From IMG/VR virus record IMGVR_UViG_3300044735_000130, positions 6,176-70,175 of that record: a stretch of 64,000 bases of DNA, one strand, 5' to 3'. The notes beneath the pieces are model-generated. The model had not been told where the DNA came from, did not search any database, and saw only the letters and a list, made by a program, of their open reading frames with translations. The position numbers and the translations under genes are program-made. Each line of letters begins with the position of its first letter. Within the stretch, counting starts at the first letter, position 1. Below, in pieces: positions 208-56,484 of the stretch. Origin of the DNA: a virus. Its lineage: Duplodnaviria > Caudoviricetes.

Positions 208-1386
208 TCATATTTTTTGACCCTCCATTAGCCAAATATGGCTATAACCTGCCGACGGGTTTATATGATCTTTTGAATAAACGGCTTCTTGTCCATAATA
301 TGTTCCTGTCGGTCGTATGCCGAATAACATCCTTCCCGATCCAGAGGTCCATACAGATTGCCCCCCCATTCCAAATAATACATTGCCCGGGTCAACATCA
401 CAATACCCGACCGCGACACCCGAACTTACCGAGCCACTGTTGCACTGATTAGTCGTAAATTCTAAACGACCGAAATTTGGGATATAGACCCAGTCGTAAC
501 CGGTATAATCAAAATCAATACTATATGAGGTTATCGTGCTTGGATCGGAATTGATATGATCCTTTCCGATCGCGTAGGTATACGAAAACGCGTTTGGACT
601 ATAACTTCCGGTGGCGGTCAATAAGCATCCGGAACCACTCCAATTTGTACGAGCGCCCGTACTTACTGATTTATATTGAACATAGGGAGTAAGAGAAGGC
701 TGGTGTGCTGCCGGAGAAGACGTGGTTTTATGAAGGTGAAGCATATTTGCTAGCACCGAACGATCGATGTAGTTGCCGGAAGCATCTTTCAAACGAATCC
801 CGATCACGTATACATGTAAGATGTGAGCATTCGCTTCTATGTGGTCCTTTGAGCTTGCGACCCAAGTAATAAAATTGCTATAACCATCTCCCTCATCTGC
901 GATATGGTTTTCCCACAGAAGCGCACCGGGTCCCGTACCATAATCCACGTAGGCTCCGCCGCCCATTGCTACAAATCCGGGTTCAACTTGGCAGGCTAGA
1001 CTTTGATGTTGGGCTGCCGAAGGTGTAATACATTCGTAAATACGAGACTCTATTTGTCCGCTTGCATCCGTCCACGTCTGATATAGGGTATTTGTTTTTG
1101 CCAATGCGGCCGTTCCGCCTCTGGATTGGCGCGGCACAATATGCCAGCCGGTATTTAATTGGTATACGTCTCCGGTTTCGGGATCCCTATACACTCCCGG
1201 CAACAACTTATGCTGGCCGGCGGTTTTATCATCGGCAACCTGATGCAAAGTCGCCGAATCAGCCATCACCTTTTCTACAGGTTGGGATCGCGTGGGCGCC
1301 GGATCTATTGCGGATGGGGCGGGAGTATCCTGGAGGTTACATCCTTGAAGAAGGGCGAAGAATAATAGAAGCGCAAGAACTGGCAT
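208..1386 (-). CDS. Putative lipoprotein with three internal ...G-G..LL...KDH repeats
   Basis: Hydrophobic signal plus lipobox LLQG-C; three repeats ending SKDH/GKDH/SKDH; visibly more AT-rich than the capsid genes. Confidence 0.75.
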   Translation of the reverse strand: MPVLALLLFFALLQGCNLQDTPAPSAIDPAPTRSQPVEKVMADSATLHQVADDKTAGQHKLLPGVYRDPETGDVYQLNTGWHIVPRQSRGGTAALAKTNTLYQTWTDASGQIESRIYECITPSAAQHQSLACQVEPGFVAMGGGAYVDYGTGPGALLWENHIADEGDGYSNFITWVASSKDHIEANAHILHVYVIGIRLKDASGNYIDRSVLANMLHLHKTTSSPAAHQPSLTPYVQYKSVSTGARTNWSGSGCLLTATGSYSPNAFSYTYAIGKDHINSDPSTITSYSIDFDYTGYDWVYIPNFGRLEFTTNQCNSGSVSSGVAVGYCDVDPGNVLFGMGGQSVWTSGSGRMLFGIRPTGTYYGQEAVYSKDHINPSAGYSHIWLMEGQKI

Positions 1387-1577
1387 TTAATCTTCCTTTA
1401 GGTTATGCCCCGTGGTAATCCGAGGCGCGATAAAGCTAACGCCACGACATAAGTGCGTCAAGAATTATTAGAGATCCGCGACACGCTTTACACGCCTTTT
1501 TCCTTACGCGCTTCTGTAAGGAGTTTGCGCACGATATCATGGACGCTTCTACGCCCCAAAGTATAGGAAAGTAAATC

Positions 1578-1662
1578 TGGGCCCGGCAGGACTCGAACCT
1601 GCACGTCCTTTCGGACAGACCGTATTTGAGACGGCCGCGTCTACCACTTTCACCACGGGCCC
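1578..1662 (-). tRNA. tRNA-Leu(CAA), CCA not encoded
   Basis: Acceptor stem GGGCCCG/CGGGCCC plus A73; anticodon arm GCCGT-CTCAAAT-ACGGT; long variable arm; GGTTCGAGTCC T-arm. Confidence 0.93.
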
Positions 1663-1670
1663 AAGAAACC

Positions 1671-1750
1671 TACACCCGGAGGGACTTGAACCCCCACGCC
1701 ATTGGCACCGGAGCCTAAGGCCGGCGCGTCTTCCCTTCCGCCACGGGCGC
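1671..1750 (-). tRNA. tRNA-Leu(TAG), CCA not encoded
   Basis: Acceptor GCGCCCG/CGGGTGT plus A; anticodon loop CTTAGGC; GGTTCAAGTCC T-arm. Confidence 0.9.
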
Positions 1751-1755
1751 ATATC

Positions 1756-2124: not shown

Positions 2125-2534
2125 TGGTGGACCCGGCGGGAATCGAACCCGCGTCCGTCACGCATTCCTCAATCGCTCCTACACCCATTTCCCTTGTTTT
2201 TTATTCGCCTCCGTACTTCCACAAGGGTGGGCCGTACGCAAGCTATCCCGAGCTTGTCACTCCCGCACGTTCGGGTGCCGCGCGGAAGCTACCCCTTATT
2301 TTATTCCAACCTTTCAGGCCCCAAGGGTAGGGGTCCGAAGGCCGCGTCCCGGGCTTTTAGGCCAGGACGGTTTCCGCGTTTTCCACCGAGGCCACGAGGG
2401 CATCGACTTTGGCGCGGACGGCGGCGGTATAAGCGTCGTCGTGTCTTTTTTCCTCGATGATTAAGGTGGCCAACGAGAAATCCACCGGGTGCAACTCTTG
2501 AATCCTGACCTGCCGTCGAAACCTGGGCGGGCCC
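2125..2534 (-). ncRNA. ssrA: tmRNA, one-piece, 410 nt; tag ORF 2440..2357
   Basis: 5' GGGCCCG..GGTTTCGACG; 3' GGTTCGATTCCCGCCGGGTCC-ACCA; acceptor stem has the G3.U70 Ala determinant; internal ORF ends ...ETVLA-TAA. Confidence 0.93.
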
Positions 2535-51022: not shown

Positions 51023-51672
51023 GTGTTAAAGATCTCCCGGATTTTAAAGATGAGGTTTTGGGCTTGTTCATGGGTGAGGTCGTCAATCGTGATCTTATTA
51101 TACCGGCCGGTGCTGATATCGATTTCGGCGCGGACGCGGTTGGCGTTGTTGGGATCCCGCGGAAGAATGGGCAGGTTGCAACGGCGGTTCTCGACGTATC
51201 GCCGCAGGTCGTCCGGCTTGATCTGCGCTTCGCATATGCGGGCGTAATGCTCCAGTAAGGCCCGATAATCCCTGTCCGCGTTTTCCGCCGCCACCTTTTT
51301 ATCGAGGTGGTGAGCGTATCGTTCCAAGGCTGCCGGCAAGATGCGCTTGGCCAGGCTTTTAGCCGCATCGGTTACGTTTCGGTCGCCATCAACACTAAAG
51401 TTTAAGGCTGGGCCCCCGGAAAAGTCATATCCGGGAGTGCAGTAAGAGGCCGTGATTTTCCGATAGGGGTAATGGCACGAAACCGAAACCCGTGTTCCGT
51501 TGACATGGGTGAGGTAATTGCGATCGTAATCCGCTTGAAGGGAGTATTTCCAATCCGGATTATCCTTGGCCATTTGTTTCGCGATCAGGGTCGCTCTTAG
51601 TTTCCGTTCTTTTTGCTGTCGCTCTTTCTTCTCGCGTTCTAGCCTGCGCTGGTCTTCATAGCTTCCGATCAT
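51019..51672 (-). CDS. Hypothetical early protein
   Basis: Start after AGGAGCAAAGACC (MIGSYEDQRR...). Confidence 0.7.
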   Translation of the reverse strand: MIGSYEDQRRLEREKKERQQKERKLRATLIAKQMAKDNPDWKYSLQADYDRNYLTHVNGTRVSVSCHYPYRKITASYCTPGYDFSGGPALNFSVDGDRNVTDAAKSLAKRILPAALERYAHHLDKKVAAENADRDYRALLEHYARICEAQIKPDDLRRYVENRRCNLPILPRDPNNANRVRAEIDISTGRYNKITIDDLTHEQAQNLIFKIREIFNT

Positions 51673-51784
51673 GGTCTTTGCTCCTAACTGGATTCCCGCC
51701 AGATATGCCCCATCCTTGCAGGGGCCGGGCCTGGGAATCATTCCCCAGGTGCCGCGCCTAAACCGGGCGCGTTCGGCAACTGAT

Positions 51785-51976
51785 TTAGATCCTTTCCATA
51801 TCCAAGCGTTTATTGAATTCCGCAAGGGCGCAATCCGCTATCTCCGCGCATTCTTTGGCCATGGCTTCGGGGGTTTGGCGATTATCCCCATTAGCCATAA
51901 TCGCCGCTTGCATAAACCGTTTCCATTCCATTGCATTTTGGGAGTGAGGGTGGAATTTCGGCATTTCTTGGGCCAT
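51785..51976 (-). CDS. Hypothetical early protein
   Basis: AAAGGA RBS; FMQAAIMANG...A.ECAEIADCALAE. Confidence 0.55.
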   Translation of the reverse strand: MAQEMPKFHPHSQNAMEWKRFMQAAIMANGDNRQTPEAMAKECAEIADCALAEFNKRLDMERI

Positions 51977-51981
51977 AATTA

Positions 51982-52341
51982 TTATCCTTTCGCTTTGGCT
52001 ATAAGTTGGTCGAATCTGTCCAAGATCTTTTTCGATCGATATAACCATGTGACTTCTGTTTTGAGGATGCGTGTAGCTTCCTCCAAGGCGTGTACCAAGT
52101 CGGGAGTCAGAGCAATTAGTTGCATGTTGGCGCGGTCCATTGCTTCCGGATTGTTGGCGAAACCTTGGCAAATCGAATACAGGCCGGCAGGGTTATCTAT
52201 GTCAGTATAAACCGATCTACCGCTTGGATGGGCTTTCCATGGGCCGGGTGTATGCTGGGTTGCGATCCGATCATATAGTTCCGCGGATGCCTCCAAGTCT
52301 TCGGGATCGATTTCATCGGCTTCGGGGTTGTAATTTGGCAT
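51982..52341 (-). CDS. HTPGPW...ANxxLIA family early protein
   Basis: HTPGPWK...ANMQLIALTPDLVHAL. Confidence 0.65.
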   Translation of the reverse strand: MPNYNPEADEIDPEDLEASAELYDRIATQHTPGPWKAHPSGRSVYTDIDNPAGLYSICQGFANNPEAMDRANMQLIALTPDLVHALEEATRILKTEVTWLYRSKKILDRFDQLIAKAKG

Positions 52342-52343
52342 GG

Positions 52344-52763
52344 TTATTTTCCCTGCGCTTTGGCGACGGTTTTCTGTGATTGGCGGAGGGCGCGGAGGGC
52401 CAGCGCGCGCTGATCTCGATGGATCCAGGGGTAATCATAGCCCGGATGATCATTAAACCCGGCCTGTCCGCGTTCGGGTGATGCGCATCCCTCTAGGATG
52501 TTAGAGAGCGCATCATGTAGGGCTTGGCAGGTTTTGAGCAAATTAGGGGCAGCGGCAATTAGACGCATGTTCGCCTTATCTTCATCATTACCCGTGATGA
52601 CTTCGGCGATCAGTTTTAGGCCCGTAGCGGCCTTTCTAGACCATATGCGGGCAAAGTGCCCCATGGGTTCCGCTTCCCAGGGTTCTTGCGTGTGCTTGGA
52701 AAGCTGCTTAATGAATTGGCGCTTTCCAGCCTTGGTGGTGATGGGGTAATCTTTCGTCATCAA
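52344..52763 (-). CDS. HTPGPW...ANxxLIA family early protein
   Basis: HTQEPWE...ANMRLIAAAPNLLKTC. Confidence 0.65.
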   Translation of the reverse strand: MMTKDYPITTKAGKRQFIKQLSKHTQEPWEAEPMGHFARIWSRKAATGLKLIAEVITGNDEDKANMRLIAAAPNLLKTCQALHDALSNILEGCASPERGQAGFNDHPGYDYPWIHRDQRALALRALRQSQKTVAKAQGK

Positions 52764-52954
52764 AGTTCTCCGGTTTCCATGGGATCATTAGCGGGGACGG
52801 CATCTAAGACCGTCATTTTTCCGATTCCGGTTTCTTGGTCGGCGCGTGGTATTCCGTTGGCGTACGCTTTTGCTTCCGCCTCGGCTGCATCTTTGGCTTC
52901 GATTTTCATTTCGCCAAAGGTTTCCCATTTGACTTTCACAATATATTCGGGCAT
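52760..52954 (-). CDS. Small hypothetical protein
   Basis: YIVKV..T...KIEAKDAAEAEAKA; AGAAAGGAAC RBS. Confidence 0.6.
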   Translation of the reverse strand: MPEYIVKVKWETFGEMKIEAKDAAEAEAKAYANGIPRADQETGIGKMTVLDAVPANDPMETGEL

Positions 52955-52969
52955 CTAGCGTTCCTTTCT

Positions 52970-53020
52970 GCCGTCTTAGTCAATCCAGGCCCGCGACGGG
53001 GACGCGCGGCTAGTGGGCCC
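52970..53020 (-). ncRNA. Minimal HDV-like (theta-like) self-cleaving ribozyme
   Basis: P1 GGGCCC/GGGCCU with G.U at +1; P2 GCCG/CGGC; P3 GCG/CGC; L3 UCCCCGU; GG after P1; J4/2 ACUAA; no real P4. Confidence 0.8.
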
Positions 53021-53048
53021 ATATAAGCGGGCGCAAGGCCCGCGCGGG

Positions 53049-53276
53049 TTAGGTTTCTCGCTGTATTCCGTGGATGGTTGCGCGATCTAATCCTCCGCAT
53101 TGGCAGGATTTGATCCCGCAAAAATGCCGGGCCGCCCGTTTTTGTTGGGAGGGTGTGAGCATATGTGGCCATCCAAGGCTATAGCGGCCCGGTTCGATCC
53201 AGAATAGGATCAGGGGTCTCTTATGGAATCCTCCTTGCGCGGTGATCTTGATGCGGTGTGCGAGTTGCTTGCTCAT
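53049..53276 (-). CDS. Hypothetical early protein
   Basis: LTPSQQKRA.RHFCG..SCQCG. Confidence 0.6.
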   Translation of the reverse strand: MSKQLAHRIKITAQGGFHKRPLILFWIEPGRYSLGWPHMLTPSQQKRAARHFCGIKSCQCGGLDRATIHGIQRET

Positions 53277-53279
53277 GGA

Positions 53280-53366
53280 TTAGGCTTCCTGTTTTAGCGC
53301 CAACCAATAGGCGGCGGGAAAGATGGAAAGGGACAAAGCGAAGTGAATCGGGATTGCGTAGGCCAT
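53280..53366 (-). CDS. 28-aa hydrophobic peptide
   Basis: TAATG overlap; MAYAIPIHFALSLSIFPAAYWLALKQEA. Confidence 0.45.
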   Translation of the reverse strand: MAYAIPIHFALSLSIFPAAYWLALKQEA

Positions 53367-53620
53367 TACATTCCCTCGGGGAGATAGTCTTCCAGCTTGT
53401 AGCGCTGGACCATAGACGGGACAGCCGCATCGGTTTCCGTCGTCCCGTAGACAGTCTTTTTAGGCTTCGGGAGCGGCACGGCCTCTAGGCCTTCGTGCGC
53501 GCTGAACTTGAGGAAGTCCGATCCCCGGTGGATGGCGTGGCCGCGCTTCTTGGCTTCCGCAATGAGGCGATCCAGGGTTGCGGGTTCGTGCTCGGTGAAT
53601 ACAACGATTTGAGGCTTCAT
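53366..53620 (-). CDS. Hypothetical early protein
   Basis: AGGAGCAAAGACT RBS. Confidence 0.65.
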   Translation of the reverse strand: MKPQIVVFTEHEPATLDRLIAEAKKRGHAIHRGSDFLKFSAHEGLEAVPLPKPKKTVYGTTETDAAVPSMVQRYKLEDYLPEGM

Positions 53621-53644
53621 AGTCTTTGCTCCTTGGGTTGTCTT

Positions 53645-53698
53645 GCCCGACGCGGTTTCCCGCGTTTCGGCCGGGCGTGGCCGGCCATCGTCAGGGGC
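53645..53698 (-). ncRNA. Type I hammerhead ribozyme (copy 1)
   Basis: GCCC-CUGACGA-U-GGCCGG(CCACGC)CCGGCC-GAAAC-GCGG(GAAA)CCGC-GUC-GGGC. Confidence 0.9.
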
Positions 53699-54021
53699 TA
53701 AAGCTTAAGCGCCTTCCTTTTTTTGGTCGGGCAGTCCAGGACATCGGGGAATTTCACAATCGAATCCCCTTCGGCCTTGACATAGACCATTCGCCCCGGG
53801 TCCATCGCCGCATGCTTGCGCGATTTCAGGAAGGCGGCGAACTCGGGCCCATCTTCGTTCCCGAGGATGAAAAGGGATAGGCGATGCGTTTTCCCGGCCT
53901 GGTCGGTCACGTGGACGTATTGCGCCGAATCCGAGGTCGGCCGCGCTTCCCGACAAACCGAGGACGCATGGGCGATCGGGCTGAGGATGGCCAGGGACAG
54001 GAAAATAAGCTTGGTTTTCAT
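53698..54021 (-). CDS. Secreted/periplasmic hypothetical protein
   Basis: Signal peptide MKTKLIFLSLAILSPIAHA-S; two Cys. Confidence 0.65.
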   Translation of the reverse strand: MKTKLIFLSLAILSPIAHASSVCREARPTSDSAQYVHVTDQAGKTHRLSLFILGNEDGPEFAAFLKSRKHAAMDPGRMVYVKAEGDSIVKFPDVLDCPTKKRKALKL

Positions 54022-54037
54022 GGTCTTTGCTCCTTTT

Positions 54038-54089
54038 TCTCCCTCTGCATTTCTCCGGGCTTGGGACCGGCCTAGGCTGCATTAAGAGG
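54038..54089 (-). ncRNA. Twister ribozyme, type P1
   Basis: UCU-U^AA-UGCA-GCCUAGGC-CGGUCCCAAGCCCGG-AGAAA-UGCA-GAGGG-AGA. Confidence 0.9.
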
Positions 54090-54109
54090 CCCCTAAAAGG
54101 GGCTTGGGG

Positions 54110-54430
54110 CTAGACTTCGCTTCTAGCTCGGCTAATTGCCGCCTGGGCTTCTATGGCCCAATGCTTGGCCGTATCGGCGCGGTGTTGGCCTTGGCTTCGT
54201 AGCCAATCGGCGCAAGTGGTAAGGGCGCGCTCGGCCGCTTCCAGGGCTGCAAGAGTGGCCGGGGCTTCGGCGATCAAACGGGCGTTATATTCGTCTTCAT
54301 CCGTCCAAGCGGGCAATTTTCCCATGTGGGCCCGGCGTGGACCGTGCAGGGTGAAAAACTTATCCCCGCCCGTTCCATCTTGGAAGGCGTGATACTTGGT
54401 GTGCCAGGGTGCGGGTGTATGCGTTGCCAC
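54110..54430 (-). CDS. HTPGPW...NARLIA family early protein
   Basis: GTG start after AGGAGCAAAGACC; HTPAPW...NARLIAEAPATLAALE. Confidence 0.7.
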   Translation of the reverse strand: MATHTPAPWHTKYHAFQDGTGGDKFFTLHGPRRAHMGKLPAWTDEDEYNARLIAEAPATLAALEAAERALTTCADWLRSQGQHRADTAKHWAIEAQAAISRARSEV

Positions 54431-54451
54431 GGTCTTTGCTCCTTTGTTCTT

Positions 54452-54505
54452 GCCCGACCCGGAATCCCGGGTTTCGGCCCCGCGCTGGGGGCCATCATCA
54501 GGGGC
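54452..54505 (-). ncRNA. Type I hammerhead ribozyme (copy 2)
   Basis: GCCC-CUGAUGA-U-GGCCCC(CAGCGC)GGGGCC-GAAAC-CCGG(GAUU)CCGG-GUC-GGGC. Confidence 0.9.
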
Positions 54506-54508
54506 GAA

Positions 54509-55609
54509 TTACTGGCCGATGCCAATATCCCAGATCGAAACCGGCTGCGGCGCATAGGTGGCGAGCTGCGCGGCCTGGGAGGTTTCCACGGCCCGGAGGA
54601 TGCGGGAAATGTCGTCCTCCATGTCCATCACCTCTACCAAGGTCTGAAGCGCGCGGCCGTTCTTCTCCGCAATGGAGCCGAATAAGACCGCCTTTGCTCG
54701 CCCCTCTTCCTTGCTGATCGTCTCGTCGTGCAGGCGGACGGCTCCCGAGTGGCAAAAGTGTTTGGTTGCGGCATTGTAGGCGTTCCAAGCGGTCGCCGGG
54801 TCAATGCGGCCGCCATCGGCATCCCGCCACAAACGCGCGACGGAATCGGCTTGCTCCTTGGCGTTCTTGGCCCCCTGGGACTCGGTCTTCCCTTCCGCGG
54901 GAAAGAGGCGGAAGAGGTATTCCCGCATATGGTCCTCGGTCACGCGCTTCCGGGCCAGGGCTTGGAAAACGCGCTCGGTCTTGACCAAGCGATCCCCGAT
55001 GATGTGATACGCCCGCTTTGCGGCCCGAAGGCGGTCTTCCGCGCTCTTGGTGTGCGAAATGGCGAATCCATCGTCGGAGCCGTTCAGGGCCCGGGTAAGC
55101 GTGTTGGCGCATACAATGCGGGTGGGGGTCGTAAAATACTTCATGCGGCCGGATCCATCGTGGGCGTTCGCCCAGGTGATCCGCCGTTTTACAACGTCCT
55201 TAAATCCTCCGCGGCCCGTGTCGCCGATGACCATTTCCCCCAGGTCAATCTGAGCCACAGCCACGCGTCCGCCGTCAAAGGTCATTCCACGGGCCATGAC
55301 CATGCCCCCCGCTTCGCCCGCAAAGGCGGACAGGATTTCTACGGCTTCGTCATTCTGGATGGTCGTAAAACGGCTGGACAAGCCCGATCCCAGGATTTCG
55401 CGGGTGTCTTCGCGGTAGACGTCATAAAAGTGCGTGGGCTGGCCGTTAAGGGCGTTCTTATGGTTCACAGTCAAGACCTTGTAATCGAGGCCGTGATCCC
55501 GCATCCACGCGCGGATCCCCTCTTGGGTGTTCAAGGTCTGGCGCTCTTCCTGGCCGAAGTACTTTTCCGTGTCTAAATCAAGGCCGAAAGCGAGGTTACG
55601 GGCGATCAT
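54509..55609 (-). CDS. DUF932 family phage/plasmid protein
   Basis: LDYKV..YREDT..ILG..S.RFT.IQN; FDGGR.A..Q; WANAHDGSG..F.TPTRIVCANTL..AL; AWNAYNA. Confidence 0.88.
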   Translation of the reverse strand: MIARNLAFGLDLDTEKYFGQEERQTLNTQEGIRAWMRDHGLDYKVLTVNHKNALNGQPTHFYDVYREDTREILGSGLSSRFTTIQNDEAVEILSAFAGEAGGMVMARGMTFDGGRVAVAQIDLGEMVIGDTGRGGFKDVVKRRITWANAHDGSGRMKYFTTPTRIVCANTLTRALNGSDDGFAISHTKSAEDRLRAAKRAYHIIGDRLVKTERVFQALARKRVTEDHMREYLFRLFPAEGKTESQGAKNAKEQADSVARLWRDADGGRIDPATAWNAYNAATKHFCHSGAVRLHDETISKEEGRAKAVLFGSIAEKNGRALQTLVEVMDMEDDISRILRAVETSQAAQLATYAPQPVSIWDIGIGQ

Positions 55610-55650
55610 GGTCTTTGCTCCTAGTGAGGGTGGAATTACCCTACGCTCAT

Positions 55651-55679
55651 AAGATACCTCCAGAGGAAGGATATAACAA
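55651..55679 (-). promoter_or_regulatory. Early operon sigma70-type promoter
   Basis: TTGTTA-N17-TATCTT, ~40 nt upstream of the DUF932 start. Confidence 0.7.
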
Positions 55680-55764
55680 GGGTAGGACTAAGCCGATCGC
55701 ATAAGAAAAGCGGAACAAATCACCCCGATTTATGCTTGGCGGACTGAATAAGGATTAGATCCCC

Positions 55765-56484
55765 ATGGAAGAGCTAACCCCCCTAACCGACCTAACCCCC
55801 GAATTCCCCCCAAAAGGCAAAAAAAGGCCCGAACGGCTTAAACACGCCAACCCCGCCAACGTCCCCACCATCGGCACCGGAAGCACAAACGAATCCCTCA
55901 CCGATGACGATATCGCCGAAGCCTTCTCTAAAGCCGGCGGCCAACCCAAAAGGGTCAAAGGACGGCTTTCCTCCGATGTGGGCGCCTATAAGCCCGAGTA
56001 CTGCCAATCCCTGATCGATTTCTTCGACCGACCCCCCACCCGGGAAATCCTCGAAACCTGGTATCATTCGGATGGATCGGTTAAAAGAGAAAGCCTAAAG
56101 GAAATCCCGAACAGCCCCCCCCACCTCGGCCAATGGGCCATGTCCATCGGATTTTATCCGTTCGTGGCGTATGAGTGGGCGCGGAAACATAAAGATTTTG
56201 CCTATGCTCTCGCATGCGCTCGATCTCTCCGTAAGCACCTGGTCATTGATAACGCCCTGAAAGGCCTTTATAACCCGATTTTCGCCAAGCTGGCGGCCGC
56301 CAACTGGTTCCAGTGGTCGGAGAAACAGGACGTGCACCATTCCGGGGAAGTCAAATCCGTCCTCGTGGCCTACCATAAGCCCGAGCGGGAGGCGCCGGTT
56401 CAAATCGAGGCGGCCGAAGTCCTGCCGCTGCCCGGTCCCGCGCCGACCCCTCTCCCTCTACCCGAAGCCGAAGGCGAGGGGTAA
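55765..56484 (+). CDS. Terminase small subunit
   Basis: YKPEYCQ.LIDFF..PP.L..WA..IG....YEWA..H.DFA.A...LIDNALKGLYNPIFAK..WSEKQDV. Confidence 0.8.
   Translation: MEELTPLTDLTPEFPPKGKKRPERLKHANPANVPTIGTGSTNESLTDDDIAEAFSKAGGQPKRVKGRLSSDVGAYKPEYCQSLIDFFDRPPTREILETWYHSDGSVKRESLKEIPNSPPHLGQWAMSIGFYPFVAYEWARKHKDFAYALACARSLRKHLVIDNALKGLYNPIFAKLAAANWFQWSEKQDVHHSGEVKSVLVAYHKPEREAPVQIEAAEVLPLPGPAPTPLPLPEAEGEG

What the first reader, a model, noticed from the sequence alone, without database searches (positions are those of the whole stretch)
52970..53048. Minimal HDV-like ribozyme not linked to a tRNA, with competing upstream pairings
Seen: GGGCCC-ACUA-GCCGC-GCG-UCCCCGU-CGC-GGGCCU-GG-AUUG-ACUAA-GACGGC fits the nested double pseudoknot with catalytic C in J4/2 and no P4, like minimal metagenomic HDV-like/theta ribozymes as I recall them. 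The 5' flank can form GCCC(GCUUAUAU)GGGC over P1 and CGCGCGG/CCGCGCG over P2-P3. Inference: cleavage may be gated by folding or by ribosomes ending at the stop codon at 53049-53051; here it trims an mRNA rather than a tRNA trailer.
Basis: partly seen in the sequence, partly recalled or inferred. Interest (0 to 1): 0.8.

Follow-up and report, generated by a model that had tools for sequence, protein, structure and literature searches.

The report
Minimal HDV-like ribozyme between phage genes
A 51-base stretch between two small genes of an uncultured soil phage has every sequence hallmark of the smallest known hepatitis-delta-type self-cutting RNAs. It most likely cuts the phage's long early message just before the next gene, which makes it one more member of a known class rather than a new kind of element.

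Summary
On the minus strand, 53020-52970 folds into a P4-less HDV-type nested double pseudoknot. It carries the conserved unpaired bases of published "theta"/minimal HDV-like ribozymes: L3 U-CC-NCGY, GG for P1.1, J4/2 CUAA, and a G1-U wobble.

A general descriptor hits only this site in the 64-kb window and nothing in 300 shuffles. A covariance model built from 94 other phage theta ribozymes also finds only this site (24 bits, E about 0.004). Its short P2 (inner pair, bulged A, four G-C pairs) is a recurrent family layout with median predicted stability.

There is no tRNA nearby. The element lies 28 nt after a stop codon and 15 nt before the next AUG, behind a GC hairpin. The twister ribozyme in the same operon has the same layout, and so do arrays of theta-like ribozymes in other phages. 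The best reading is intercistronic mRNA processing.

The competing 5'-flank pairing is real and stronger than in about 94% of relatives. Gating by folding or by ribosomes remains untested. Rfam does not recognise the element, no locus-specific homologues exist, and no RNA data were found.

Non-tRNA theta ribozymes are already published, and this scan has reported intercistronic HDV-like ribozymes on other DNA several times. Verdict: new member of a known kind.

The parts
53049..53276 (-). Upstream gene (75 aa), stop codon UAA at 53051-53049
   Evidence: ORF list. One homologue, P0002, at 65% identity over 68 aa. SD-like AGGAAG upstream of its AUG.
53027..53043 (-). GC hairpin: 6-bp stem (53043-53038 with 53032-53027) and 5-nt loop. 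It would end the upstream cleavage product.
   Evidence: Predicted dG -12.6 kcal/mol, and it is the MFE of the flank alone. Not scored as an intrinsic terminator. Comparable hairpins precede other intercistronic theta-like ribozymes and the twisters.
53021..53026 (-). 6-nt U/A linker. The predicted scissile bond is between U53021 and G53020.
   Evidence: The position follows from the HDV-family rule that cleavage is 5' of G1. The R2 model alignment starts exactly at 53020. Cleavage itself was not tested.
52970..53020 (-). Minimal (P4-less) HDV-like / theta-type ribozyme, 51 nt
   Evidence: Only descriptor hit in the window, with 0 hits in 300 shuffles. Only hit of model R2, 24.0 bits, E = 0.004. 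Segment-by-segment match to the published theta format.
53015..53020 (-). P1 5' strand, pairs with 52987-52992 (G1-U wobble plus 5 G-C pairs)
   Evidence: Predicted duplex dG -10.8, against a family median of -6.5.
53006..53010 (-). P2 5' strand, pairs with 52970-52975 (inner C53006-G52975, bulged A52974, then 4 G-C pairs). J1/2 is 53011-53014.
   Evidence: The same inner-pair-plus-bulge layout occurs in 23 of 109 distinct family members. Duplex dG -6.3, against a family median of -6.1.
52993..53005 (-). P3 (53005-53003 with 52995-52993) enclosing the 7-nt L3 (53002-52996). The L3 CC (53001-53000) pairs with GG 52986-52985 to form P1.1.
   Evidence: L3 is identical to that of published and fetched theta ribozymes. 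GCG/CGC as P3 is present in the published data file.
52976..52984 (-). L4 linker (52984-52980, replacing P4) and J4/2 CUAA (52979-52976). The putative catalytic C is at 52979.
   Evidence: Matches the invariant C-U-A-A of the family. Five of 109 family members also have a 5-nt L4.
52955..52969 (-). 15-nt leader with SD-like AAGGA (52966-52962) before the AUG at 52954
   Evidence: Read directly from the sequence.
52760..52954 (-). Downstream gene (64 aa), an orphan
   Evidence: ORF list. It found only itself among 5.8 billion clustered proteins.
53040..53046 (-). Competitor strand in the 5' flank. It can pair with 53009-53003, which are the P2 and P3 5' strands.
   Evidence: Present in the MFE fold. 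It overlaps the 5' arm of the hairpin.

Best explanation
The element at 53020-52970 (minus strand) is a genuine minimal, P4-less HDV-like self-cleaving ribozyme of the theta type. It sits inside the polycistronic early transcript of an uncultured 70-kb soil/rhizosphere phage.

As the RNA is made, the flank hairpin (53043-53027) forms first. The ribozyme then folds into P1, P2, P3 and P1.1 and cuts between U53021 and G53020.

The upstream message would end in a hairpin plus six bases with a 2',3'-cyclic phosphate. The downstream message would start with a 5'-OH and the compact ribozyme fold, 15 nt before the AUG of the 64-aa gene and directly next to its Shine-Dalgarno sequence. The likely effect is to separate the stability and translation of neighbouring cistrons. 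The twister at 54037-54088 has the same stop - hairpin - ribozyme - SD layout, and the hammerhead-like elements at 53645-53698 and 54452-54505 also lie between genes of the operon.

Shown: the sequence and fold match to the family, the statistical significance, and the modular context. Inferred: that it cleaves, the exact cut site, and the consequences for the mRNA.
For: 1. The parse fits the segment format of published theta ribozymes, including every conserved unpaired base.
2. A general descriptor gives 1 hit in the window and 0 in 300 shuffles.
3. Model R2, built from 94 theta ribozymes of other phages, has this as its only window hit. The alignment is full length, starts at G53020, and scores 24.0 bits with E = 0.004, even though P2 is not modelled. 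GC-rich family members score similarly (L194 24-32 bits, L087 30 bits).
4. A core-pattern scan that left P1 and P2 free found independent ribozymes with the same P3 and L3 and with covarying P1 and P2. All 39 core matches in bacterial genome contigs lacked P1/P2.
5. The P2 layout recurs in the family and its predicted energy equals the family median.
6. Context: it is on the sense strand, 28 nt after a stop codon and 15 nt before an AUG. The same hairpin-ribozyme-SD module is used by the operon's twister, which scores E = 1e-11 against Rfam. A twister in relative contig L311 shows the hairpin-ribozyme part of that layout. About 14 theta-like ribozymes lie between ORFs in L302, which has no tRNA.
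7. Published work proposes that several ribozymes flanking genes in prophages process polycistronic RNA (PMC3088659; PMC6765202).
Against: - No Rfam HDV family matches, even at E up to 10 on 351 nt.
- The narrow model R1, built from 18 ACC-type theta ribozymes, does not score it even with filters off.
- R2's training set contains a few GCG-type sequences that I fetched with a pattern derived from the candidate, so its score is not fully independent.
- P2 has only 5 pairs against a typical 6-8, and J1/2 is 4 nt against a typical 1-2.
- The predicted misfold with the 5' flank is about isoenergetic with the native fold.
- There is no locus-specific comparative support. The downstream gene is an orphan, and the only homologue of the upstream gene has no spacer after it.
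Confidence: 0.72

Rival explanations
1. A theta-type ribozyme whose cleavage is gated. The 5' flank (53046-53040 and 53032-53028) traps the P2/P3 and P1 strands in an inactive fold. A ribosome terminating at UAA 53051-53049 covers the trap strand and so permits cleavage, which would couple maturation of the downstream message to translation of the upstream gene.
For: The trap helices are in the MFE fold. The energy gap between the native nested fold and the MFE is 6.2 kcal/mol, and only 6% of 109 family members reach that. The trap strand begins 3 nt after the stop codon, which from general knowledge lies within a terminating ribosome's footprint. That last step is inference.
Against: The region's fold energy is ordinary for its composition (z = 0.39). 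The complementarity comes from CG-repeat sequence that arises easily in 70% GC DNA. The flank's own hairpin (-12.6 kcal/mol) uses the same bases, forms first, and is a standard part of the module elsewhere. Seven other family members have equal or larger gaps. No relatives exist in which to test conservation of the trap.
Confidence: 0.1
2. A decayed or weak ribozyme. The sequence descends from a theta-type ribozyme but no longer cleaves usefully, because P2 is short, J1/2 is long and the misfold is strong. It would persist only as spacer or structure.
For: Its parameters lie at the tails of the family ranges. Its covariance-model score is among the lowest of the set. It lies in a block not covered by contigs of a co-occurring variant strain.
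Against: Every base known to be needed is intact: G1-U, the L3 CC, GG, and the J4/2 C-U-A-A. All four helices are fully paired. Predicted P2 and P1 stabilities are at or above the family median. It keeps the functional module position next to the SD.
Confidence: 0.12
3. Not a ribozyme. It would be a chance resemblance within GC-rich spacer hairpins, for example a weak terminator or mRNA-stabilising stem-loops.
For: Rfam is silent. A hairpin followed by a U/A-rich run stands just upstream. About 100 chance matches to the core pattern exist in public GC-rich DNA.
Against: Chance cores almost never also have P1 and P2: 0 of 101 did, and 0 of 39 bacterial loci passed the full descriptor. There were 0 hits in 300 shuffles. 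It is the only R2 hit in the window. The hairpin is not scored as a terminator.
Confidence: 0.05

Closest known systems
Theta ribozymes / minimal HDV-like ribozymes of Caudoviricetes (Kienbeck et al. 2024, Nat Commun 15:1559, PMC10879173; the minimal motif was first described from metagenomes by the earlier work that paper cites)
   Same: It has the same P4-less nested double pseudoknot and the same segment order. The conserved bases are identical: U-CC-NCGY in L3, GG for P1.1, C-U-A-A in J4/2, and G1-U. GCG/CGC as P3 occurs in their data. It is phage-encoded, intergenic and in the sense orientation, like their 526 non-tRNA hits.
   Different: There is no tRNA at the cleavage site. The host environment is soil/rhizosphere rather than gut. 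It is 70% GC. P2 has 5 pairs with a bulge against their 7-nt P2, J1/2 is 4 nt and L4 is 5 nt. It lies tightly between a stop codon and an SD, whereas they report most non-tRNA hits more than 200 nt from an ORF.
Multi-ribozyme operons of prophages (several hammerheads flanking single genes: Perreault et al. 2011, PMC3088659; twister and hammerhead sharing gene neighbourhoods: review PMC6765202)
   Same: Self-cleaving ribozymes sit between genes of one phage transcript, which suggests processing into shorter mRNAs. The operon here also holds a twister-P1 and two hammerhead-like elements.
   Different: Those reports concern hammerhead and twister. Here an HDV-like ribozyme occupies an equivalent slot.
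Genomic and antigenomic HDV ribozymes and the bacterial drz-Fpra-1 (HDV-F-prausnitzii, Rfam RF02682)
   Same: The fold topology, the cleavage 5' of G1, the J4/2 cytosine, and sensitivity to upstream attenuator pairings. That sensitivity is established for HDV from my own knowledge and was not checked here.
   Different: There is no P4. The element is much shorter, at 51 nt. None of these Rfam models matches.
Theta-like ribozyme array in IMGVR_UViG_3300043442_000931
   Same: A GC-rich hairpin, then a theta-like ribozyme, then about 23 nt with an SD before the next AUG. No tRNA. A DUF932 gene is in the operon.
   Different: That phage uses about 14 copies of one class. The window's operon mixes classes and has a single HDV-like copy.

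Membership tests
HDV-like (delta-like) self-cleaving ribozymes | Nested double pseudoknot: P1, P2, P3 and the 2-bp P1.1 in the canonical order | tested here: met
   All pairs are standard. P1 has 6 bp, P3 3 bp, P1.1 2 bp, and P2 5 bp with one bulged A.
HDV-like (delta-like) self-cleaving ribozymes | G1 at the cleavage site, forming a G-U wobble that closes P1 | tested here: met
   G53020 pairs with U52987. 104 of 109 fetched family members start with G.
HDV-like (delta-like) self-cleaving ribozymes | Catalytic cytosine as the first base of J4/2, followed by N-R-A | tested here: met
   C52979 followed by U-A-A. Substituting A, G or T at the catalytic position in the descriptor gives no independent hit in the window.
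HDV-like (delta-like) self-cleaving ribozymes | Site-specific self-cleavage giving a 2',3'-cyclic phosphate and a 5'-OH | not testable with these tools
   No RNA run holds the locus. This needs a bench assay.
HDV-like (delta-like) self-cleaving ribozymes | Match to a curated Rfam HDV-type model | tested here: not met
   No HDV-family hit at the gathering score or at E up to 10. Those models include P4 and cannot model the pseudoknots.
Theta ribozymes (Kienbeck 2024) | No P4, with a short L4 linker | tested here: met
   L4 is 5 nt, 52984-52980. The family range seen here is 5-8.
Theta ribozymes (Kienbeck 2024) | Conserved L3 U-CC-NCGY, GG after P1, and J4/2 CUAA(N) | tested here: met
   Identical at every one of these positions.
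Theta ribozymes (Kienbeck 2024) | Score against a covariance model of family members | tested here: met
   R2 (94 sequences): 24.0 bits, E = 0.004, and the only hit in the window. Caveats: the narrow model R1 gives no hit, and a few training sequences were fetched with a candidate-derived pattern.
Theta ribozymes (Kienbeck 2024) | 7-nt P2 and 1-3-nt J1/2, as in the listed hits of the refined descriptor | tested here: inconclusive
   The candidate has P2 of 5 bp plus a bulge. Read as 7 nt, it would carry 2 mismatches. J1/2 is 4 nt. The authors' descriptor file is an image that is not held, so their tolerance for mismatches is unknown.
Theta ribozymes (Kienbeck 2024) | Cleavage site within 5 nt of a tRNA 3' end (source of the name; true of 58% of their occurrences) | tested here: not met
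   ARAGORN and Rfam find tRNAs only at 1577-1751. The bases upstream of the site are an ORF end and a hairpin.

The most novel reading that the evidence does not exclude
The ribozyme is a translation-coupled switch. The unusually strong trap helix formed by the 28-nt flank keeps it uncut until a ribosome finishing the upstream 75-aa gene melts the trap. The downstream cistrons would then be released as a separate, stabilised mRNA only when the upstream gene is being translated.
Probability: 0.1. Interest if true: 0.7.

Novelty: new member of a known kind. Interest (0 to 1): 0.4.

Why it matters
It adds a GC-rich example from a soil phage to a ribozyme class described mainly from gut phages and mainly as a tRNA 3'-end trimmer.

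It also shows an HDV-like ribozyme in the same "stop - hairpin - ribozyme - SD" slot that a twister fills elsewhere in the same operon; two hammerhead-like elements also sit between genes there. That supports the idea that different self-cleaving classes are interchangeable modules for cutting phage polycistronic messages. It offers a compact natural system, with three classes in 1.6 kb, for testing what such cuts do to mRNA stability and translation.

The element itself is not a new kind of thing. Similar intercistronic HDV-like ribozymes have already been noted several times in this scan on other DNA.

Tried and rejected
- Rfam at the gathering score over the whole window, and at E up to 10 on 351 nt around the site, gave no HDV-type hit.
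- The narrow covariance model R1 gave no hit, with default filters or with filters off.
- The genome search 'own' with R2 returned nothing, although cmsearch with the same model finds the site. I attribute this to that tool's first-look filter and draw no conclusion from it.
- Locus-specific relatives:
  - blastn of 52300-55700 against the phage collection found no match.
  - The search for related loci with the 64-aa and DUF932 proteins found none in viral contigs.
  - An exact 36-mer of the ribozyme found none in viral contigs.
  - The 64-aa protein is an orphan.
  - The homologue of the 75-aa protein is followed directly by the next gene, with no spacer and no theta hit.
- RNA evidence: no RNA holder is listed for the locus.
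- Laying DNA contigs of a co-occurring variant strain gave no cover of 51878-53887, so no natural variants of the ribozyme were seen.
- Terminator reading of the upstream hairpin: not scored by the consensus scan.
- Hammerhead neighbours: Rfam hammerhead models do not hit 53645-53698 or 54452-54505 even at E up to 10. Their identity rests only on reading the core by eye.
- The Weinberg 2015 paper could not be read. I therefore could not check whether HDV-like ribozymes were already counted among the ribozyme-associated gene neighbourhoods.

Full report
**What is there.** The window is bases 6176-70175 of a 70,175-bp IMG/VR virus record with direct terminal repeats. Its DNA is held by soil and rhizosphere metagenome runs. 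The finding lies on the minus strand, in a 94-nt spacer between a 75-aa ORF (53276-53049, stop UAA at 53051-53049) and a 64-aa ORF (52954-52760). The upstream ORF is a real gene, with one homologue at 65% identity. The downstream ORF is an orphan.

**Anatomy.** Numbering from G1 = 53020:
- P1 is 53020-53015 with 52992-52987, a G-U wobble followed by five G-C pairs.
- J1/2 is 53014-53011.
- P2 is 53010-53006 with 52975-52970.
- P3 is 53005-53003 with 52995-52993.
- L3 is 53002-52996. Its CC (53001-53000) pairs with GG 52986-52985 to form P1.1.
- A 5-nt linker (52984-52980) replaces P4.
- J4/2 is CUAA (52979-52976), with the candidate catalytic C at 52979.
- All pairs are standard.
- Fifteen bases containing AAGGA then lead to the AUG.

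**Comparison with the published family.** The supplement of Kienbeck et al. 2024 (PMC10879173) lists theta ribozymes cut into segments: P1 | J1/2 | P2 | P3 | U | CC | NCGY | P3' | P1' | GG | L4 | CUAA(N) | P2'. The candidate fits this format. It is identical at every conserved unpaired position. One listed ribozyme has the very same L3. GCG/CGC as P3 is present in their data file. The paper also reports 526 theta hits that are not next to a tRNA, mostly intergenic and in the sense orientation. "Not linked to a tRNA" is therefore already known.

**Is it chance?**
- I wrote a general descriptor: any Watson-Crick P3; L3 U-CC-NCGY; GG; L4 of 4-9 nt; C-N-R-A; P1 of 6-7 bp starting with G; P2 of at least 4 bp. 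It hits the window once, at this site, and never in 300 dinucleotide-preserving shuffles.
- I then scanned public collections with a pattern that fixes only the P3-L3-P3' core, the U-GG and CUAA, and leaves P1 and P2 free.
- Of 121 distinct matches, 20 had a perfect P1 and a P2 of at least 4 bp. These are independent ribozymes with different, covarying P1 and P2 sequences. They include a family from 150-kb gut phages and single cases in other phage and metagenome contigs.
- Of the other 101, only 2 had a perfect P1, and neither of those also had a P2 of at least 4 bp.
- All 39 matches in bacterial genome contigs were bare cores of this kind.
- The candidate belongs to the structured group.

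**Covariance models.**
- Model R1, built from 18 theta ribozymes of one narrow ACC-P3 type, did not score the candidate.
- Model R2 was rebuilt from 94 ribozymes that R1 found in the fetched loci. Its only hit in the 64-kb window is the candidate: a full-length alignment starting at G53020, 24.0 bits, E = 0.004.
- P2 is a pseudoknot and adds nothing to this score.
- Other GC-rich members score in the same range.
- Caveats: calibration is rough, and a few training sequences came from my candidate-derived pattern.
- Rfam has no model that recognises the element.

**The short P2.**
- Among 109 distinct theta-like ribozymes collected here, P2 is usually 6-8 bp and J1/2 is 1-2 nt. The candidate, with four contiguous pairs and a 4-nt J1/2, sits at the tail.
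- However, 23 of the 109 share its exact layout: a pair next to P3, then a single bulged base (A in 16 cases), then the helix.
- Because the candidate's pairs are all G-C, its predicted P2 duplex energy is -6.3 kcal/mol, against a family median of -6.1.

**The flank.**
- The 28-nt flank contains a 6-bp GC hairpin (53043-53027, -12.6 kcal/mol). It is the stable fold of the flank alone and forms first as the chain grows.
- The hairpin plus the nested part of the native fold gives -24.9 kcal/mol, against -34.6 for the misfold. In the 79-nt comparison used for the family, the native nested fold is 6.2 kcal/mol above the MFE. Adding the pseudoknotted P2 duplex (-6.3) closes that gap, so the two folds are roughly isoenergetic.
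- The 6.2 kcal/mol gap is equalled or exceeded by only 6% of family members. The competition is real and unusually strong.
- There is no sign that it has been selected. The region is no more stable than shuffles (z = 0.39), the complementarity is CG-repeat sequence, and no relatives exist to test it.

**Context and likely function.**
- The genes from about 55.6 kb down to 50 kb all lie on the minus strand. The first encodes a DUF932 protein.
- Rfam finds a type-P1 twister at 54037-54088 (58 bits, E = 1e-11, below the gathering score because an optional stem is missing).
- Two elements with a complete hammerhead core and compensatory stem changes lie at 53645-53698 and 54452-54505. Rfam does not hit them.
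- The twister has the same layout as the candidate: stop codon, GC hairpin, ribozyme, SD, AUG. A twister in contig L311, which carries homologues of three of this operon's genes, also follows a stop codon and a GC hairpin.
- Non-tRNA theta-like ribozymes elsewhere repeat the module. Locus L302 (IMGVR_UViG_3300043442_000931) has about 14 of them on one strand between ORFs. Those I parsed sit mostly about 22 nt after a stop codon, behind a GC hairpin that ends about 2 nt before G1, and several lie about 23-25 nt before the next AUG. L302 has no tRNA and also carries a DUF932 homologue.
- Published work already proposes that several ribozymes flanking phage genes cut polycistronic RNA into shorter messages (PMC3088659; PMC6765202).
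- I therefore read the candidate as an intercistronic processing ribozyme. The hairpin would cap the 3' end of the upstream fragment. The ribozyme fold, with a 5'-OH, would head the downstream message. This last step is inference.

**Limits.**
- No RNA data exist for the locus.
- Contigs of a co-occurring variant strain match 51500-51877 and 53888-55800 but not the block between them, so no natural variants of the element were seen.
- Activity, the cut site and any gating need bench tests.

**Relation to earlier notes of this scan.**
- Notes on this same window describe the operon with four ribozymes of three classes (e1-5855757 and its parts). I confirmed the twister, and I confirmed the hammerheads only by eye.
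- On other DNA the scan has already reported HDV-like ribozymes between phage early genes: e1-4048133, e1-5929340, e1-5849034, e1-2147662 and e1-1197486. The arrangement is therefore recurrent, and this case is one more member.

Noticed in passing
L302 = IMGVR_UViG_3300043442_000931:37753-49197 (minus strand of the locus): About 14 theta-like HDV ribozymes on one strand in 11.4 kb, between ORFs. Those I parsed mostly follow a GC hairpin that ends about 2 nt before G1, and several lie about 23-25 nt before the next AUG. There is no tRNA, and the locus includes a DUF932 homologue.
   Followed up: partly
window 54037-54088 (-): A type-P1 twister ribozyme (58 bits, E = 1e-11, below Rfam's gathering score of 67.2 because the optional stem is absent). 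It has the same stop - GC hairpin - ribozyme - SD layout as the HDV-like element.
   Followed up: partly
window 53645-53698 (-) and 54452-54505 (-): Two type-I hammerhead-like elements with intact CUGANGA / GAAA / UC cores, an extra U before stem II, and compensatory differences in stems II and III. No Rfam hammerhead model hits them even at E up to 10.
   Followed up: partly
window 2125-2534 (-), 1577-1751 (-): The phage record carries a full-length tmRNA gene (125 bits) with an unusual predicted tag peptide ending in PERLE, next to two tRNA-Leu genes (anticodons CAA and UAG).
   Followed up: no
window 51878-53887: Contigs of a co-occurring variant strain (runs X3/X4) match 51500-51877 and 53888-55800 (42 substitutions, all in 54520-55554) but break at both edges of this block. 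This suggests a swapped gene cassette that includes the HDV-like element.
   Followed up: no
L311:97-149 (+) (logan SRR26696974 contig): A relative contig carrying homologues of the 75-aa and 139-aa genes has a twister-P1 (E = 1e-8) behind a GC hairpin, upstream of the 139-aa homologue. In the window, the HDV-like element and an orphan gene stand upstream of that gene. Ribozyme classes seem interchangeable between related operons.
   Followed up: partly
family-wide (109 distinct theta-like ribozymes in fetched loci): About a fifth share a P2 sub-motif: a pair next to P3, one bulged base (mostly A) directly after it on the 3' strand, then the helix. I did not find this in the parts of the theta paper that I read.
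   Followed up: partly
L194 = Ga0315280_10176869:86-139 and 884-937 (-): Two GC-rich (67-70%) theta-like ribozymes within a 1.3-kb metagenome contig. One has a 5-nt L4, as in the window's element, and stands behind a strong GC hairpin.
   Followed up: no
window 53277-53365 (-) and 51686-51784 (-): Two further spacers of about 90-100 nt in the same operon. Rfam gave no significant hit in this operon other than the twister, and model R2 hit neither spacer. I did not examine them further.
   Followed up: no
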